DNA of 64,000 nucleotides from Armatimonadota bacterium (GTDB taxonomy: Bacteria > Armatimonadota > UBA5829 > DTJY01): positions 57,838-121,837 of the forward strand of contig DATKXU010000082.1 in NCBI GenBank assembly GCA_035528905.1, given 5' to 3'. Position 1 is the stretch's first letter. Every line of letters begins with the position of its first letter. Of the stretch, positions 27,420 through 53,963 are shown one piece after another. The position numbers and the translations under genes are program-made. The notes beneath the pieces were generated by a model. The model worked only from the letters and a program-made list of their open reading frames with translations. It did no database searches and had not been told where the DNA came from.

Positions 27420-27546
27420 ACGAGTTCAAAACGTGGATACAGAATACCCGATCCACCTGAAAAAAGCAAGCAGCGGGGCATCGGGCATGGGAGACTTGGC
27501 GACCGGGCGAAAGGGAGAATGGGTGAATGGGAGAAGGGGAGAACAT

Positions 27547-27592
27547 TGAACGTTCAACATCCAGTATCCAGCATCAAGCATCCAGTATCTAG
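27547..27592. repeat. Perfect palindrome TGAACGTTCA followed by two direct repeats CATCCAGTATC spaced 21 bp apart, upstream of the hppA promoter
   Basis: Read directly: tgaacgttca(27547-27556) acatccagtatccagcatcaagcatccagtatctag. Confidence 0.5.
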
Positions 27593-27645
27593 AATCACGC
27601 GGGACGATCCGCACACGGTACGCGGGCTGCCTTACGAGGCATTGG

Positions 27646-32262: not shown

Positions 32263-33050
32263 ACTTAGGGCAGCCCTCAAAGTCCCGAATCATCCGCATT
32301 CTGCCCTAGCAGAATCAATTGTTCCAGCCGTTCCACCAGGCTGCGGATCGGGCGGCCTGCGGTATCGGGCCGGCTGGAAAGCTGCCGATACCTCTCCACT
32401 ATCTCCCGACGAACCTCCTGCGGCAAGATCGGGACTAGTATTGACTTTATCCGGTCGAAGTTGATTCCACACGGGCCGACGCCGCATTTCTCGCGGTGGA
32501 TCTGAAGGCGGGCGAACCGCGTTTGCAGGTAGACCGCCAGGTACTCCGGCTCTACATCTCTGACACGCACGAGATTGATGTGCTGGCTGATATTGCACGG
32601 CTCGTCCGAGTAGAAGACCGCCGCCCGGCCGATGCACCCTACCCCACTGTTTGCCAGAAGCAGGTCGCCCTTTTGTAGTCGGCTCCGCGCCGGATCATTA
32701 CGAGAGCCTGGTGGCACAAACCGTTCGGGTGAACGGATATCCACCCCGATCACGAAGCCCTCGCCGGTTGTGACGAGGTTCGCAGGTGTCAGCAGCCGGA
32801 CGCCGGATTCCGCCAACTCCCGTTTCCCCACCTGGCCGTAAGTCGTGTACTCGATCAATTCGCCCAAAGTGACCGCGTTCGGCAGGCCCCTCAGGAGGCG
32901 GAGGTTTTCGGTGTATTTACGGTGATAGTAGGCAGGATCCAATCTGTCGCCTGGGGACAAGATTTCCGCCGGAAAGACCACCCACGGCAGGCATTCGATT
33001 TCGGACTTGTCCGCCGGAGCCTTGGCATAGGAGGATTTGGGATTTCGGGT

Positions 33051-33178
33051 TGCGGATTGACCTACCCCCCTTCCTGCCTCCCCCCGAAGCGGAGGGAGGA
33101 GCACCTTCTCCCCTCTCCGCATCGGAGAGGGGCCGGGGGTGAGGTTTGGCTCGTCGGCTGCCGACCACTGTGCAAAAT
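33051..33178. repeat. Dispersed ~100-130-bp repeat, copy 1, inside the methyltransferase reading frame
   Basis: ~96% identical over ~95 bp to 47251-47355 (gcggagggaggagcaccttctcccctctccgcatcggagag...gaggtttggct.gtcggctgccgacca.tgtgcaaaat). Contains palindrome GTCGGCTGCCGAC and an imperfect hairpin; copy 1 has a 26-bp C-rich insertion. Confidence 0.75.
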
Positions 33179-33641
33179 CGGCGAACTGCTCGGCCAGGCG
33201 CTCAATTCCAGCCTGCCAGGAGGCACGAGATTCGAGTGCGGCGCTGAATACACGGCCCGGAAGCGCAGGATTCCTCTGGAAAACCAATACACTGGCCTTC
33301 GAAGCCGCGCCGGTGCGGTAAAACGTGTGCCGGGGAAGGCTGACAATCGCCCTGATCGCCGCGCGGCTCGAGAGCCATTCACGCACGTAGGAAAGCCGTG
33401 CGTTCGCCAGGATTCCGTCAGGCACAACCATCGCGACGTATCCGCCCGGCCTCGCAAGCTGCCAGAAGCGCTCCAGAAAGAGCACCTCGATCCGATACTT
33501 GGCGAGATCGGCGGCGTGTTGTCCATCCCGCCATATCGTGAAGTTTTCCCTGATGGCGCGAGCGAGCTGCTCGAAGTCCGGCGACGATCTCAGGCTCAAT
33601 GTGCCGAATGGAGGATTGCCGACGACCCAGTCGAAAGGAGT

Positions 33642-33684
33642 ATGGGGGTATGGGAGTGTGGGTGGATGGGAGTGTGGGTGGATG
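33642..33684. repeat. Tandem 16-bp duplication (ATGGGAGTGTGGGTGG x2, partial third) adjacent to a G5 tract, inside the methyltransferase
   Basis: Read directly: tatgggggtatgggagtgtgggtggatgggagtgtgggtggatg. On the coding strand it encodes the His/Pro/Thr-rich linker HTPIHPHSHTP. Confidence 0.8.
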
Positions 33685-34016
33685 TAGTTCTGTCCACATC
33701 TCCCAGTACGCATAAGCCGTCGCCGATGAAAAGGTTCGCGCGGCCCAGCAAGCCGTTTTCTTTCCAGGCTGCCGCCATCCGATTGTCTTTCTCGATGCCG
33801 AAAAGCCGATCTGGAGAAGTAATGCCGTGCTCCAGGGCATAGGCCAGAAAAGCACCTTCGCCGCACGCAGGGTCAATAATGCGCGGACACCGGGCATTGG
33901 AATCGAGGGCTCGGAGCATACGGTAGCACAGTTCGACTACCGGCTCGGGGGTGAAGTACTGGCCGAGCATCCTGGCGCGATCCATGCCCTGATATAGCAC
34001 AGAAACCCGCGCGTGG

Positions 34017-36642: not shown

Positions 36643-36676
36643 GGATGGAGTATTGGAGTAGTGGAGTGTTGGAGTA
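36643..36676. repeat. Four tandem 8-bp repeats GGAGTnnT (ggagtatt ggagtagt ggagtgtt ggagtaat) in the 670-bp intergenic gap
   Basis: Read directly; member of a G-rich micro-repeat family also seen at 27520, 33642 and 46262. Confidence 0.7.
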
Positions 36677-44874: not shown

Positions 44875-46407
44875 CTATTCCGGCACAACAATCACGTCGG
44901 CCTGCTTCCTTACTCGCACAACCGGGGTCAAGTCAGGCTGTCTGTCGCCGACCCCCGTGACTACAACGTACTCGCCTTCGCCCGGCGGCGTTAGCCCGTC
45001 ACACCGCACCTTCAGCCCCGGATCGGGAAGGGAGCCATCGTTCACGTAGAAGCATGCGGAGCCGACGGCCTTGACGCGCCCACAAGTCGTCACAAGCAGG
45101 CCGATATTGCTCAGCCCGGCGCCGCCGACTCTATCCGCCGGCATGCCGAGCACCTTCGGGGGGTCGCCCGACGACACAAAGTACACGGAAGCCTTGTCGA
45201 GGAACCGCTCGCCATTGAGCGTGCTCAGAATGCCTATGACATCCACGCGATCGCCTTCCGCTGCCGAATCGCTCGTCTTCACGCGGATTCCGGACGAGCG
45301 CTGTTCCTCCTGGACGTACAACTCCCCATCGAAAACGGCGCTGACCACTTTCTGAGAGAGCGAGATCACGCTCCCATCAGGTTGGCTCTTCGCAGGCCCG
45401 ATGCTCTGACCGCCCGGCAGGGGCGACACGTCCGACACCGCATCAATCTCCGCCGAAATCTCGCCAAGCTCGCCCGCCGAATCTCCCGCGAGGGCATCCG
45501 TGATCCGTATGAAGTCGAAATACGGAATTTGGGCATACACATATGGAGCCACCGGCACACCGGGCGAAGTCTGCTTCACCGCGGCCGCTATGTCGAAAGC
45601 ATCTCCGCCGCCCGAACCTTCATCAATCAATAGGCTCTGTGGATCGCCCGCGTAGCTCTGGCGATCCGGCACTGTGTAAAACTCCTCGGGCGTTTTCCCC
45701 GGCGGCAATCCAAGGGTCGGCGTGTACTCGGCATAGTGCCGGAGCACAGTGCGCGAGTCGCCGGTATCGCAATTCGGGGCCGGGGAGCCGACCAGCTCTG
45801 ACGGGAGCTTGTTCGGCAGCACCAGGAACCACTCGTCGTCCGGGAGGCCGTTTCCGTTCGCGTCCATGCTGATCTCGACGAAGGCGGGCTCCTGCCAGCG
45901 ATGCCCGGGGTCGCCGCTTACCCAGGTCGGGTTGCCGAATACGATGAAATCCAGGCCGTGCGGGTTCCTTGGATCGTCCCAGACCGGCCGATTGAAGTCG
46001 AGCGTGATCCAGCCGTGATCGCCCAGCGTGACGAGGGAGCTGTTATCCGGGGCGGTTGCCGAAATCCCGTATGGCCGCCCGAGCGCCCGCTCACGATCGT
46101 TGAATCGCGAGTCATTAACCCACTGCCCCGGCCCTGGCTCATACTCGATCACGCAGTCGGCGAACGGCCACGCGCCAGCCCATGCGTTAACCGCCAAGAC
46201 GCCAAGCAGACAAAGGAAGAGAGACTGCAGACGGCAGATCCGCCTCAGGCGGAACTGCAGATGATGAGTGACGAGTGAGGAGTGATGAGTGATGGGAGAT
46301 GGTATTCCTCCCCCCTCTCCCTTGCTCCCGCTCTTCCATTGTGCGCCCGGACCCCTGGATCCCTGGACCCCTGGACCCCTGATTCCCTTAGTCCTTCGAC
46401 TCCACAC
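44875..46407 (-). CDS. Hypothetical membrane-anchored/secreted protein with Gly/Pro/His-rich N-terminal tail
   Basis: ATG at 46407; hydrophobic anchor LQSLFLCLLGVLAVNAWA after a low-complexity tail encoded by micro-repeats; no recognisable domain. Confidence 0.45.
   Translation of the reverse strand: MWSRRTKGIRGPGVQGSRGPGAQWKSGSKGEGGGIPSPITHHSSLVTHHLQFRLRRICRLQSLFLCLLGVLAVNAWAGAWPFADCVIEYEPGPGQWVNDSRFNDRERALGRPYGISATAPDNSSLVTLGDHGWITLDFNRPVWDDPRNPHGLDFIVFGNPTWVSGDPGHRWQEPAFVEISMDANGNGLPDDEWFLVLPNKLPSELVGSPAPNCDTGDSRTVLRHYAEYTPTLGLPPGKTPEEFYTVPDRQSYAGDPQSLLIDEGSGGGDAFDIAAAVKQTSPGVPVAPYVYAQIPYFDFIRITDALAGDSAGELGEISAEIDAVSDVSPLPGGQSIGPAKSQPDGSVISLSQKVVSAVFDGELYVQEEQRSSGIRVKTSDSAAEGDRVDVIGILSTLNGERFLDKASVYFVSSGDPPKVLGMPADRVGGAGLSNIGLLVTTCGRVKAVGSACFYVNDGSLPDPGLKVRCDGLTPPGEGEYVVVTGVGDRQPDLTPVVRVRKQADVIVVPE
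46349..46388. repeat. Five tandem 8-bp repeats GGAyCCCT, and an adjacent GAGTGATGAGTGATGGGAG block (46262-46302), at the 5' end of the 44875..46407 gene
   Basis: Read directly; encode GPGVQGSRGPGAQ and HHSSLVTHH in the N-terminal tail. Confidence 0.7.
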
Positions 46408-46414
46408 TCTCTCA

Positions 46415-47224
46415 TCACCTCAGGTCAAAGAGTTCATTACTGTCCGGGCCGAACCAGCCGATCCTGAACCGCTCATTATCGCCGCCGTACGCACTCCGCG
46501 CAGTGAAGGTCATCTCCTCCGACGTCACATGCCCGTCACACCAGGCGACCAGCGTCCTTTCGTTGTGTCGGAAGTGAATTGACGGCGTATAGCGATAAGA
46601 AGTGGGCTGGCCGTCCGGACCGAGGATATACGGAGGCTCGCAGAACGAGTACTCGGTAACGTGCTGCTGCGGATAGTCCTGCGCGATGGCGGTGTCTGTG
46701 AACATCACCGTCCGGCTCGGATTTCGCACATGGCACACGCGGGCTGCCACGGTGCTGGAGCGCATATCGCTCCAGCCGTACTTCCAGTAGCTTCCGCCTA
46801 TGTAGTCATCGTTGTACCCGTAACCGCCGCATCCAGCCTCGAACGCATTGGGCGAGTAGGAATCCGAGGCATCCATCGCCGGACATATCTTCAGGCCACT
46901 GGATCTGCCCAGGTACTGCCAGAGCGGACCTTTCTCCGGGTCGAACGCCGCACTAGGCGACGGACGCCAGCCGTGCCAGCGCCAGTGACCTCCGCCGGAT
47001 GCGAAGATATCGCACGCGGCAGGGACAAACCGCCCATCGTAGTCCTGGGAATACATCTGGTTTGCCATCGCGAGCTGCCTCAGGTTCGAAGCGCATTTCG
47101 CTTTGTAGCCAGCCCGCCTCGCAGACGCGAGAACCGGGAACAGTATCGAGGCCAGAACTCCAATTATCCCAATGACCACCAGGAGCTCGATGAGGGTGAA
47201 GCCGATTGTGGATTGCGGACGCAT
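46415..47224 (-). CDS. Prepilin-type N-terminal cleavage/methylation domain protein with DUF1559 (H-X9-DG) domain
   Basis: GFTLIELLVVIGIIGVLASILFPV N-terminus; C-terminal HFRHNERTLVAWCDGHV H-X9-DG motif. Start set at MRPQSTIGF (47224); the upstream in-frame extension is the dispersed repeat. Confidence 0.85.
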   Translation of the reverse strand: MRPQSTIGFTLIELLVVIGIIGVLASILFPVLASARRAGYKAKCASNLRQLAMANQMYSQDYDGRFVPAACDIFASGGGHWRWHGWRPSPSAAFDPEKGPLWQYLGRSSGLKICPAMDASDSYSPNAFEAGCGGYGYNDDYIGGSYWKYGWSDMRSSTVAARVCHVRNPSRTVMFTDTAIAQDYPQQHVTEYSFCEPPYILGPDGQPTSYRYTPSIHFRHNERTLVAWCDGHVTSEEMTFTARSAYGGDNERFRIGWFGPDSNELFDLR

Positions 47225-47250
47225 CCTCCGTAGCTTTAGCGAAGGAGGAG

Positions 47251-47355
47251 TGCGGATTGCCCAAAGCGGAGGGAGGAGCACCTTCTCCCCTCTCCGCATC
47301 GGAGAGAAGCCGGGGCTGAGGTTTGGCTGGTCGGCTGCCGACCAGTGTGCAAAAT
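47251..47355. repeat. Dispersed ~100-bp repeat, copy 2 (5' leader of the DUF1559 gene)
   Basis: ~96% identical to 33051-33178 minus that copy's 26-bp insertion; immediately followed by a terminator-like hairpin. Confidence 0.75.
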
Positions 47356-47359
47356 GAAA

Positions 47360-47405
47360 CCGGGCTCTCGTCTGAGCCCGGAAGCTTTTTTCGACGAGAG
47401 CCCGG
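47360..47405. terminator. Bidirectional terminator-like nested hairpin (CCGGGCTC/GAGCCCGG followed by TTTTTT on the plus strand; 13-bp outer IR ccgggctctcgtc/gacgagagcccgg)
   Basis: Inner stem 47360-47367 / 47374-47381 then aagctttttt; outer 13-bp perfect inverted repeat 47360-47372 / 47393-47405. Confidence 0.5.
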
Positions 47406-47766
47406 CATAAGTTACCGATAGCGCGCTTCGCCATCTTTGCCTCCGAAGACGGTCCGATGCTGCGAAGCAGGCAGGTCTTCTGACTTCCGGATCAGCCGAT
47501 GTCCGGCTCCTTCCCAGAGCATCTTCGCCCCAAATCTGAGAGCTAGCTCCAGTGGTTTCTGCCGAACCCGTACCCGGTTACAGCGGCGGGCCCGTGACGG
47601 ACTTTCACCGTCTTCCCTCATCACCTCCCGACGCAATCCAGGGAGGCGCCTGCTCGCACGGATATTCAATTATCGAGAAGAGTCTACCACAGCGGAATTG
47701 GCCTGTCAAGCATCCTTGCAGACATTTTCAAGCAGCCGGGGAGCCAGCGCCGCTAGAATCCGTGCA

Positions 47767-53839: not shown

Positions 53840-53963
53840 CGCCCACAGCGATTCGCAAGCAGGTTGGGACATTCTCTCGCTCCCTCGGTCTCCCCATCGC
53901 CCATTCTCCCAGTCGCCCCGTCGCCTGCGCGTTTAGGCCTGAGCGACTTGGGGTACACATGCC

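What the first reader, a model, noticed from the sequence alone, without database searches (positions are those of the whole stretch)
33051..33178. Dispersed ~100-bp repeat present twice (33.05 kb inside the methyltransferase ORF; 47.25 kb in the DUF1559 gene leader), MITE-like
Two copies ~96% identical over ~95 bp, 14 kb apart, in the same orientation. The element contains the palindrome GTCGGCTGCCGAC and an imperfect hairpin (GCGGAGGGAGGAG/CTCCCCTCTCCGC). Copy 1 has a 26-bp C-rich insertion. In both places it is translated in the same frame on the minus strand (..SAAD.PNL.PG.SPMRRGEKVLLPPL..). So it either encodes a short mobile peptide module or is a non-autonomous element inserted in-frame into a gene and a leader. 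No transposase is nearby.
Basis: seen in the sequence. Interest (0 to 1): 0.55.

Follow-up and report, generated by a model that had tools for sequence, protein, structure and literature searches.

The report
In-frame GC-rich palindromic repeat, two copies
The two-copy repeat is real: it is a roughly 85-108-base GC-rich hairpin element from a repeat class found in many bacterial phyla. It sits, with the reading frame kept open, in a methyltransferase linker and in the long leader peptide of a B12-riboswitch-controlled pilin-like gene, much like the palindromic elements known from Rickettsia.

Summary
The repeat is confirmed: 33083-33178 vs 47260-47355, 94% identical, with no other copy in the window. 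The source is an Armatimonadota MAG.

The core is 108 nt in copy 1 and 85 nt in copy 2 (copy 2 has lost about 23 nt). It consists of a short palindrome plus a nested hairpin. The hairpin's 36 non-loop bases equal the consensus ACCYCACC-CCCGGCCCCTCYCCG-loop-CGGRGAGGGGAG. That motif has more than 120 exact hits across many phyla and is multi-copy in some genomes. A profile built only from those hits finds copy 1 at E=1.5e-11.

Both sites are polymorphic among close relatives:
- Methyltransferase orthologs carry the core in frame (L002) or lack it (L003/L004).
- Leaders of the riboswitch-DUF1559 gene carry it (L001, L005) or hold unrelated repeats (L006/L007, 96-98% identical to L001 in the gene).

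Both sites appear to be translated but unconstrained: a domain linker, and a cleaved prepilin leader peptide whose start codon lies next to the riboswitch.

There are no TIRs, no target duplications and no nearby transposase, so it resembles REP or Rickettsia RPE elements rather than a MITE. The two copies also share flanking modules, which suggests copying between the loci by recombination. In other genomes these hairpins bracket DUF559 endonuclease genes.

The parts
33060..33167 (-). Copy 1 core, 108 nt = 36 codons (WSAADEPNLTPGPSPMRRGEKVLLPPLRGEAGRGVG). It consists of the palindrome GGTCGGCAGCCGAC, the linker AGCCAA, and a nested hairpin ACCTCACCCCCGGCCCCTCTCCG-ATG-CGGAGAGGGGAG-AAGGTG-CTCCTCCCTCCG...GGGGGGTAGGT.
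   Evidence: This is the segment present in the window and L002 but absent from the orthologous MTases of L003/L004 and from the distant homolog L009. It folds at -69.5 kcal/mol, z = -2.2. The family profile hits 33146-33106 at E=1.5e-11.
32995..33059 (-). Copy 1 right flank: heptamer repeats CAATCCG/CAACCCG/AAATCCC plus the 26-30-nt module TCCTCCTATGCCAAGGCTCCGGCGGA (QSATRNPKSSYAKAPADKSEI).
   Evidence: It aligns with the copy 2 flank. It is present in L003/L004, which lack the core. The module is found only at these two locus types.
33168..33178 (-). Left junction ATTTTGCACAG. GATTTTGCA encodes the native MTase residues D-F-A.
   Evidence: The distant homolog L009, which lacks the element, has GCC GAT TTC GCC (F-A-D-F-A) at this position.
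47260..47344 (-). Copy 2 core, 85 nt. It is the same element with about 23 nt of the outer 3' arm deleted.
   Evidence: The family profile hits 47323-47283 at E=1.8e-7. Orthologous copies occur in L001 and L005. It is absent from L006, L007, L008 and L131.
47200..47259 (-). Copy 2 right flank: heptamers, the module TCCTCCTTCGCTAAAGCTACGGAGGA, more heptamers, then the Gly(-1) codon of the prepilin cleavage site. It contains the ATG at 47224 that NCBI uses as the start codon.
   Evidence: In L001 this ATG is ACG.
47349..47403 (-). Terminator-like hairpin CCGGGCTCTCGTC...GACGAGAGCCCGG plus the U tract TTTCATTTTG. This is the riboswitch expression platform and lies inside the leader-peptide ORF. 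The element starts immediately 3' of it.
   Evidence: The same arrangement occurs in the short-leader homolog L131, where TTTTCATTTTGGG encodes F-H-F-G(-1).
47453..47668 (-). Cobalamin riboswitch aptamer.
   Evidence: Rfam RF00174: 110.1 bits against a gathering score of 31.5. It is also found in L005, L006, L008 and L131.
46415..47434 (-). DUF1559 / prepilin-like ORF read from the riboswitch-adjacent ATG (339 aa). The leader peptide is 77 aa and cleavage is predicted at G|FTLIELL.
   Evidence: Pfam N_methyl and SBP_bac_10. The upstream ATG is in frame and free of stops in 5 of 6 orthologous loci. 59 of 115 homologs encode the hairpin within their leader.
32277..34000 (-). N6-adenine DNA methyltransferase with a C-terminal TRD. 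In this window it is split into two ORFs (33596-34000 and 32277-33866) by a frameshift in a period-8/16 repeat at 33637-33684.
   Evidence: Pfam N6_Mtase, Eco57I and Methylase_S. The orthologs are intact. The repeat region is 112 nt here and 122, 122 and 128 nt in L002, L003 and L004.

Best explanation
The repeat is a small non-autonomous GC-rich nested-palindrome element. It belongs to a hairpin repeat class that occurs in many bacterial phyla, and I could not find a published name for that class.

Shown:
- In this Armatimonadota lineage it occupies two sites.
- Each site is filled in some close relatives and empty or differently filled in others.

Inferred:
- Both sites are translated but tolerant of almost any sequence. 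One is the linker between the methyltransferase domain and its target-recognition domain. The other is the stretch of a long prepilin leader peptide between the riboswitch terminator and the G|F cleavage site.
- The element persists there because it has no stop codon in that frame and its length keeps the frame (108 or 105 nt in the MTase; a total leader insert of 150 nt).
- It is a passenger: it adds a Pro/Gly/Arg-rich loop and a stable mRNA/DNA hairpin, not a functional peptide.
- The two window copies share extra flank modules and microhomology at the left junction. One was therefore probably copied from the other, or both from a third composite copy, by recombination or gene conversion across heptamer repeats rather than by cut-and-paste transposition.

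Speculative:
- The class as a whole is spread or refreshed by a hairpin-associated DUF559 (Vsr-like) endonuclease encoded elsewhere in the genome.
For: Family membership:
- The 36 non-loop bases AACCTCACCCCCGGCCCCTCTCCG..CGGAGAGGGGAGAA of copy 1 are identical to the commonest variant among 124 hits of CCCGGCCCCTCYCCG-N4-CGGRGAGGGGAG in 120 GTDB loci.
- An nhmmer profile built from those hits alone finds copy 1 at E=1.5e-11, L001 at 2.7e-11, copy 2 at 1.8e-7, L002 at 4e-7 and L005 at 2e-4.
- The stem position covaries: T-A 64, C-G 54, C-A 6, T-G 0.
- It is multi-copy within genomes: about 27 loci in Armatimonadia MAG CAYWBK01 and about 22 in Ca. Flexifilum breve.

Filled and empty sites:
- MTase: the window and L002 carry the core, while the syntenic L003/L004 and L009 lack it.
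- Leader: the window, L001 and L005 carry it, while L006/L007 do not. L006/L007 have a riboswitch 100% identical to L001's and a coding region 95.6-98.1% identical.

Frame kept:
- L002 has an intact 561-aa MTase with the element in frame and an exact 3-nt deletion.
- The upstream ATG is in frame with FTLIELL, with no stops, in 5 of 6 leaders that carry unrelated inserts.
- 59 of 115 homologs encode the hairpin inside the leader peptide.

No peptide-level constraint:
- Leader differences by codon position are 4/7/4, against 23/20/82 in the mature part.
- No database protein shares the peptide.

Same behaviour elsewhere:
- The hairpin lies in frame inside PriA, LeuRS, a type I R subunit and glycerate kinase in other phyla.

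Flank sharing.
Against: - Only two copies are visible in 64 kb. No extra copy was found in about 60 kb of related contigs. The copy number in the source genome is unknown.
- Exact-pattern scans for the specific element found nothing in GTDB genomes and only the ortholog L001 in JGI metagenomes.
- The element has a 3-nt loop, whereas the pattern scanned for the wider class required a 4-nt loop.
- The left palindrome and the 30-nt module are seen only at these two loci.
- No TIRs, no TSD, and no DUF559 gene in the window or related loci.
- The core diverges far more slowly than neutral sites: about 6% between paralogs and about 5-8% between orthologs, against 16-30% at third codon positions. A pure passenger model does not explain this.
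- L005 has a 1-nt frameshift inside the element.
- The window MTase is itself frameshifted.
- Translation of the long leader is inferred, not shown.
Confidence: 0.62

Rival explanations
1. A one-off segmental duplication or gene conversion between the two loci 14 kb apart, with no mobile element involved. A composite stretch of about 150-185 nt (core plus heptamers plus 30-nt module) was copied once. Later deletions produced the 'empty' states in relatives.
For: - Homology is colinear beyond the core, through the heptamers and the 30-nt module.
- Those modules and the left palindrome occur only at these two locus types.
- The left junction ATTTTG(CA) is native sequence at both sites, so it is microhomology.
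- L003/L004 also lack the native 'ADFAQ' codons, as a deletion would leave them.
- Copies group by locus: GACGAG in the MTase copies and GACCAG in the leader copies.
Against: - The hairpin half is a significant match to an independent cross-phylum multi-copy family, so the sequence did not originate locally.
- The modules differ independently in presence: L005 has the core without the module, and L003/L004 have the module without the core.
- L006/L007 show replacement by unrelated repeats, not simple deletion.

This rival is compatible with the best explanation for the last copying step only.
Confidence: 0.25
2. A functional cis-acting RNA or DNA element. Examples: an extra part of the B12 riboswitch expression platform, a protein-binding palindrome that modulates expression of the DUF1559 operon, or an internal regulatory signal in the MTase mRNA.
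For: - It starts immediately 3' of the riboswitch terminator.
- The element part of the leader is 92.4% identical between the window and L001, against 84.5% for the coding region, with no codon-position bias.
- A stable hairpin is predicted on the sense strand, and copy 2's CC-to-TT change keeps pairing through G-U.
- GGTCGGCAGCCGACC is a perfect palindrome.
Against: - It is absent from L006/L007, which have an identical riboswitch and a near-identical gene. It is also absent from L008, L131 and the 41 short-leader homologs.
- The same element sits in an unrelated coding region.
- Folding z-scores are only about -2.
- Only one covarying pair among five copies.
- No Rfam family reaches its threshold.
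Confidence: 0.08
3. A translated, selected peptide module (a mobile protein linker or propeptide) that contributes to protein function.
For: - The core is read in the same frame in both genes.
- L002 carries an in-frame 3-nt deletion.
- Rickettsia RPEs offer a precedent for conserved peptides (PMC10969869).
Against: - No homologous peptide in the protein databases beyond the orthologs.
- 7 non-synonymous against 1 synonymous codon change in the element part of the leader.
- Two of the three frames are open anyway.
- The flanking homology is read in different frames.
- The leader copy would be removed by prepilin peptidase.
- Orthologs function without it.
Confidence: 0.05

Closest known systems
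Rickettsia palindromic elements (RPE; Ogata et al. 2000, as reviewed in PMC10969869)
   Same: - About 100-150-nt palindromic repeats.
- Found both in non-coding DNA and inserted in frame in unrelated protein-coding genes.
- Tolerated in loops or linkers.
- No transposase of their own.
   Different: - Different sequence and a different phylum; GC-rich rather than AT-rich.
- RPE families have tens of copies per genome and conserved peptides. Here only two copies are seen, with no peptide-level conservation.
- The hairpin core is shared across many phyla.
REP / REPIN elements with RAYT transposases (PMC3116915)
   Same: - A short GC-rich imperfect palindrome.
- Often arranged as inverted pairs; here the unit plus its degenerate inverse.
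- Multi-copy in some genomes.
- Non-autonomous.
- A candidate partner gene bracketed by the repeats: DUF559 here, RAYT there.
   Different: - REPs are extragenic, and their partner is a Y1 (IS200/IS605-like) transposase.
- Here the elements occur inside ORFs.
- The only associated gene seen is a Vsr-like PD-(D/E)XK endonuclease.
- RAYT association was not tested.
MITEs (PMC10969869)
   Same: Small, non-autonomous, structured, with presence/absence polymorphism and occasional in-frame fusions with host ORFs.
   Different: No terminal inverted repeats at the element ends, no target-site duplication, and no related IS element.
Vsr-like (EDxHD) homing endonucleases such as I-Bth0305I (PMC3239194, PMC2677866)
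   Same: The DUF559 genes bracketed by this hairpin class belong to the Vsr/DUF559 group of the PD-(D/E)XK superfamily (PMC3424549). Here they are found inserted in conserved genes (PriA, LeuRS), as homing endonuclease genes are.
   Different: - The known examples sit in group I introns or between split inteins and are removed from the RNA or protein.
- Here no intron or Hint domain was detected and the insert is simply in frame.
- No such gene lies in the window.
Small dispersed repeats (SDR) of heterocystous cyanobacteria (Elhai et al. 2008; from my own knowledge, paper not held in the library)
   Same: Very small hairpin-forming mobile repeats. The scan did hit Nostoc (L011, L120).
   Different: Identity of the Nostoc copies with the SDR families was not checked.

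Membership tests
Cross-phylum GC-rich hairpin repeat (ACCYCACC-CCCGGCCCCTCYCCG-loop-CGGRGAGGGGAG; no published name found) | Sequence match to the consensus unit plus hairpin | tested here: met
   The nhmmer profile built from 120 GTDB hits (none from this clade) finds copy 1 at E=1.5e-11, copy 2 at 1.8e-7, L001 at 2.7e-11, L002 at 4e-7 and L005 at 2e-4. The loop is 3 nt here; the scan pattern required 4 nt.
Cross-phylum GC-rich hairpin repeat | Multi-copy dispersal within a genome | tested here: inconclusive
   Other genomes have many loci: about 27 in CAYWBK01 and about 22 in Ca. Flexifilum breve. The source genome shows 2 copies in 64 kb, and the rest of that genome was not available.
Cross-phylum GC-rich hairpin repeat | Hairpin maintained by compensatory change | tested here: met
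   The Y/R stem position is T-A in 64 hits, C-G in 54, C-A in 6 and T-G in 0.
MITE | Terminal inverted repeats at the element ends | tested here: not met
   The core ends TGGTCGGC... and ...GGGTAGGT are not inverted copies of each other. Only the inner part, ACCTCACCCCC...GGGGGGTAGGT, is.
MITE | Target-site duplication | tested here: not met
   There is no consistent direct repeat at the junctions of the filled sites. CAA flanks the hairpin in copy 1 but not in L005.
MITE | Related autonomous IS element or transposase | tested here: not met
   No DUF559 homolog in the window or related loci. Other transposase families were not searched for.
RPE-like in-frame palindromic element | Inserted in frame in a protein-coding gene whose orthologs lack it | tested here: met
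   The MTase carries 108 nt (window) or 105 nt (L002, intact 561-aa ORF), while L003, L004 and L009 have none. The leader ORF is kept in frame in 5 of 6 loci.
RPE-like in-frame palindromic element | Conserved encoded peptide across copies | tested here: not met
   No codon-position bias, with 7 non-synonymous against 1 synonymous change. No peptide homologs.
REP/REPIN | Extragenic location and an associated RAYT gene | tested here: not met
   Both copies lie inside ORFs. The RAYT association itself was not tested.
Cobalamin riboswitch expression platform | Conserved together with the aptamer in orthologs | tested here: not met
   L006, L007, L008 and L131 have the aptamer and the terminator but not the element.

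The most novel reading that the evidence does not exclude
The hairpin is the cis-site or footprint of a selfish element that occurs in many phyla and that I did not find described in the searched literature. Its autonomous form would be a DUF559 (Vsr-like) endonuclease gene bracketed by these hairpins. That form inserts in frame, with no intron or intein, into conserved genes such as LeuRS and PriA. Solo hairpins such as the two in this window would be non-autonomous derivatives kept uniform by endonuclease-driven gene conversion. This would explain the near-identical 36-nt consensus from cyanobacteria to Proteobacteria and the slower-than-neutral divergence seen here.
Probability: 0.25. Interest if true: 0.8.

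Novelty: new variant of a known kind. Interest (0 to 1): 0.5.

Why it matters
- It adds a case, outside Rickettsia, of a palindromic repeat living in frame inside coding sequence, with filled and empty orthologous sites at two loci.
- It shows which kinds of protein segment can absorb such DNA: a domain linker and a cleaved leader peptide.
- It ties the element to a hairpin class whose sequence is almost identical across phyla and which brackets DUF559 endonuclease genes. That gives a testable candidate for what moves or homogenises these repeats.
- It warns annotators: the 'PGPSPxRRGE' peptides and start-codon choices around such repeats are easily misread.

Tried and rejected
- The exact element pattern GCGGAGAGGGGAG-N6-CTCCTCCCTCCGC gave 0 hits in GTDB genomes. 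In JGI metagenomes it gave 1 hit, the ortholog L001.
- The left-half pattern gave 0 hits in IMG/VR.
- The peptide alignment searched against 5.8 billion proteins produced no candidate.
- The exhaustive HMMER search with the 65-aa peptide found only the source protein and four weak generic or low-complexity hits.
- Rfam at a permissive E-value gave only sub-threshold generic hairpin matches (mraW at 24.8 against 50, several miRNA models).
- RNAalifold on the five copies gave one covarying pair, too few sequences to test a structure.
- Literature searches for the sequence words, for DUF559, and for DUF1559 with riboswitch found no description of this repeat class or of these associations.
- I first read the flanking repeats as octamers. 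They are heptamers.
- I first took ATTTTGCACA to be part of the element. Most of it is native sequence at both sites.
- Rejected: a phase-variation role for the element itself. It is not a tract of tandem repeats.
- Rejected: the proximal ATG at 47224 as the conserved start codon. GGAGG abuts that ATG with no spacer, and the codon is ACG in L001.

Full report
**1. The observation**

The repeat is real. The repeat finder reports a single long family, 33083-33178 and 47260-47355: 96 nt, 94% identical without gaps, same orientation, 14,177 nt apart. Two sub-patterns of 25-26 specified bases each occur exactly twice in the window, with none expected in shuffles. No third copy exists in the window, either by blastn with short words or by a family profile.

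**2. Source and gene context**

The window comes from an Armatimonadota MAG. The methyltransferase ORF and the DUF1559 ORF are 100% identical to NCBI proteins from a 149-kb contig (P0001, P0072).

Copy 1 lies on the coding strand of an N6-adenine methyltransferase, between the catalytic domain (N6_Mtase/Eco57I) and a C-terminal Methylase_S specificity domain.

Copy 2 lies on the coding strand upstream of a prepilin-like DUF1559 gene and immediately downstream of a cobalamin riboswitch (47668-47453, 110 bits) and its terminator-like hairpin plus U tract (47403-47349).

**3. Boundaries, from filled and empty sites**

*Methyltransferase site.* The locus is syntenic in three other contigs (heparinase II/III, MTase, HepT/MNT, H+-PPase).
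- L002 (78% identical protein) carries the element in frame with an exact 3-nt deletion.
- L003 and L004 (70% and 68%) lack 108 nt, TGGTCGGC...GGGGGGTAGGT (WSAADE...GRGVG). They keep the downstream heptamer repeats and a 26-30-nt module (QSAIRNPQSSYAKAPADKSEIEC).
- A distant homolog without any of this (L009) shows that GCC GAT TTY GCC (F-A-D-F-A) is native methyltransferase sequence.
- So most of the shared left 'flank' ATTTTGCACA is not part of the element.

*Leader site.* Six orthologous leaders were compared.
- The window and L001 carry the element with about 23 nt of the outer 3' arm missing.
- L005 carries a more diverged full-length copy.
- L006 and L007 instead carry unrelated short tandem repeats. 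Their riboswitch is 100% identical to L001's and their coding region is 95.6-98.1% identical.
- L008 and L131 have neither.
- The long form is therefore ancestral.

**4. Are both copies translated?**

*Methyltransferase.* Yes in L002, where the 561-aa ORF is intact. In the window itself the gene is split by a frameshift further upstream.

*Leader.* The evidence is comparative.
- The ATG right after the aptamer (GGAGGCAAAGATG, 47434) is in frame with G|FTLIELL and free of stops in 5 of 6 loci. Their inserts are unrelated in sequence and length, and the other two frames carry stops in several of these loci, up to four in L008.
- Of 115 homologs with a recognisable cleavage motif, 59 encode the terminator hairpin inside their leader peptide (…RVLT…VRARFRF-G|FTLIELL). 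41 of those have a 26-33-aa leader and 18 a longer one.
- L131 shows this directly at the DNA level: UUUUCAUUUUGGG encodes F-H-F-G(-1).
- The proximal ATG that NCBI uses has GGAGG abutting it with no spacer, and it is ACG in L001.
- I therefore infer that copy 2 lies in a translated leader peptide that is later cleaved off. This is inference, not demonstration.

**5. Peptide or nucleic acid?**

- Between the window and L001, the mature DUF1559 part is 84.5% identical with differences of 23/20/82 by codon position. The leader is 92.9% identical with 4/7/4, and the element part shows 7 non-synonymous against 1 synonymous change.
- The peptide has no relatives in 5.8 billion proteins. An exhaustive HMMER search finds only the source protein and weak generic hits.
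- Past the indel, the homologous flanks are read in different frames: QSA... in copy 1 and AIR... in copy 2.
- So the unit of inheritance is DNA, not a peptide.
- RNA folding gives a strong but not exceptional hairpin (z about -2). Five copies give only one covarying pair. No Rfam family matches.

**6. What kind of sequence is it?**

A weak peptide hit (P0071/L010) showed a nearly identical hairpin with a compensatory T-A to C-G change.

I then scanned one genome per GTDB species with CCCGGCCCCTCYCCG-N4-CGGRGAGGGGAG. They came from Armatimonadia, Chloroflexota, Cyanobacteria, Bacteroidota, Clostridia, Planctomycetota, Myxococcota, Alpha-, Beta- and Gammaproteobacteria, Verrucomicrobia, Acidobacteria, Spirochaetota and Fibrobacterota. 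Several genomes have many loci: about 27 in the Armatimonadia MAG CAYWBK01 and about 22 in Ca. Flexifilum breve.

Features of the class:
- Nearly all copies are preceded by ACC[T/C]CACC.
- The variable stem position is T-A in 64, C-G in 54, C-A in 6 and T-G in 0.
- Some copies are followed by a second hairpin and the inverse unit GGGGYYGGGGTGAGG.
- The window core has the same layout in compact form: unit, hairpin, then degenerate inverse unit GGGGGGTAGGT.

A profile built from the GTDB hits alone recovers copy 1 at E=1.5e-11 and copy 2 at 1.8e-7. I found no name for this class in the literature I could search.

**7. Behaviour of the class elsewhere**

- The hairpin lies in frame inside real genes, with Pfam domains on both sides: PriA (L091), leucyl-tRNA synthetase (L037), a type I restriction R subunit (L068) and glycerate kinase (L106).
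- In 6 of the 120 loci a DUF559 (Vsr-like) ORF is bracketed by such hairpins. In L091 and L037 the whole hairpin-DUF559-hairpin unit is in frame inside the host gene, with no Hint or intron signature detected.
- Vsr-like homing endonucleases are known (PMC3239194, PMC2677866; PMC3424549 groups Vsr and DUF559).
- No DUF559 gene lies in the window or in the related loci.

**8. How the two window copies relate**

- They share more than the core. The left junction is microhomology (ATTTTG is native at both sites).
- Both cores are followed by (C/A)AATCCG heptamers and by a 26-30-nt module that occurs only at these two locus types.
- The modules differ independently in presence: L005 has the core without the module, and L003/L004 have the module without the core.
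- Copies group by locus, GACGAG against GACCAG. The duplication therefore predates the split of these lineages.
- Yet the paralogs differ by only about 6%. The orthologous cores differ by 5-8%, while third codon positions of neighbouring genes differ by 16-30%.
- This slower-than-neutral divergence is not explained by a pure passenger model. It could reflect selection for self-complementarity, recognition by an enzyme, or conversion from other copies.

**9. Verdict**

The element is best described as a REP/RPE-like nested-palindrome repeat. It persists in two translated but unconstrained segments because it keeps the reading frame. The last step between the two loci was probably recombination across short repeats rather than transposition.

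It is not a MITE in the strict sense: there are no TIRs, no TSD and no partner IS element. It is not a peptide module. It is unlikely to be part of the riboswitch, because near-identical relatives lack it.

The mobilising mechanism is unknown. The DUF559 link is a lead, not a result.

Noticed in passing
window 47349-47668 (-); also L005, L006, L008, L131: A cobalamin riboswitch controls a DUF1559 / prepilin-like (H-X9-DG type) gene. The start codon sits directly after the aptamer. The terminator hairpin and its U tract lie inside the leader-peptide ORF, and UUUCAUUUUG encodes F-H-F-G(-1) of the prepilin cleavage site. About half of 115 homologs show the hairpin-encoded leader motif. No paper linking DUF1559 to B12 riboswitches was found.
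   Followed up: partly
window 33637-33684 (within the MTase, 32277-34000, -): A period-8/16 repeat (CATCCACCCACACTCC-like) lies between methyltransferase motif I and the NPPF motif, and its length varies. The GDG-to-FDW distance is 112 nt here (out of frame, splitting the gene), against 122, 122 and 128 nt (in frame) in L002, L003 and L004. This could be a pseudogene, a phase-variation-like switch or an assembly error.
   Followed up: partly
window 32277-34000 vs L002, L003, L004: The methyltransferase is a mosaic. Between the window and L002, third-position divergence is 37-40% in the catalytic core and the TRD, but 16-18% in neighbouring genes and about 3-9% in the linker. The start of the TRD pairs the window with L003 and L002 with L004. 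This suggests domain shuffling across the repeat-filled linker.
   Followed up: partly
window 27487-27543, 27558-27597, 36646-36676, 46262-46294, 46349-46381, 53893-53925; L006/L007 leaders: There are many short tandem repeats of period 7 or 8 (ATGGGAGA, CATCCAG, TGGAGTAT, TGATGAG, GGACCCCT, CCAACGTC, CCCTGGAA, MAATCCG). They occur between genes and in the same permissive coding sites as the element. (C/A)AATCCG arrays translate as SAIRNPQ-type peptides.
   Followed up: no
L037:2384-5848 (-), L091:2-3616 (+); also L019, L038, L065, L086: DUF559 (Vsr-like endonuclease) ORFs are bracketed by the GC-rich hairpins. In a Chitinophagaceae LeuRS and an Anaerolineae PriA the whole unit is in frame inside the host gene, with no intein or intron signature by Pfam. 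This may be a class of in-frame selfish insertion that I did not find described.
   Followed up: partly
L010:5000-5700: In an unrelated metagenomic contig, a unit of about 290-300 nt that contains the same type of hairpin (3-nt loop) is repeated at least three times in tandem. It was called as a 197-aa ORF.
   Followed up: no
window 47681-47709 (-): A sigma-70-like promoter (TTGACA, 17-nt spacer, TAGACT, with an extended -10 TG) lies just upstream of the riboswitch.
   Followed up: no
L005:3145-3390: The leader copy in L005 has a 1-nt shift inside the small hairpin. The riboswitch-adjacent ATG is therefore out of frame, and the gene was called from an internal GTG. This could be a sequencing error, a pseudogene or an alternative start.
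   Followed up: no
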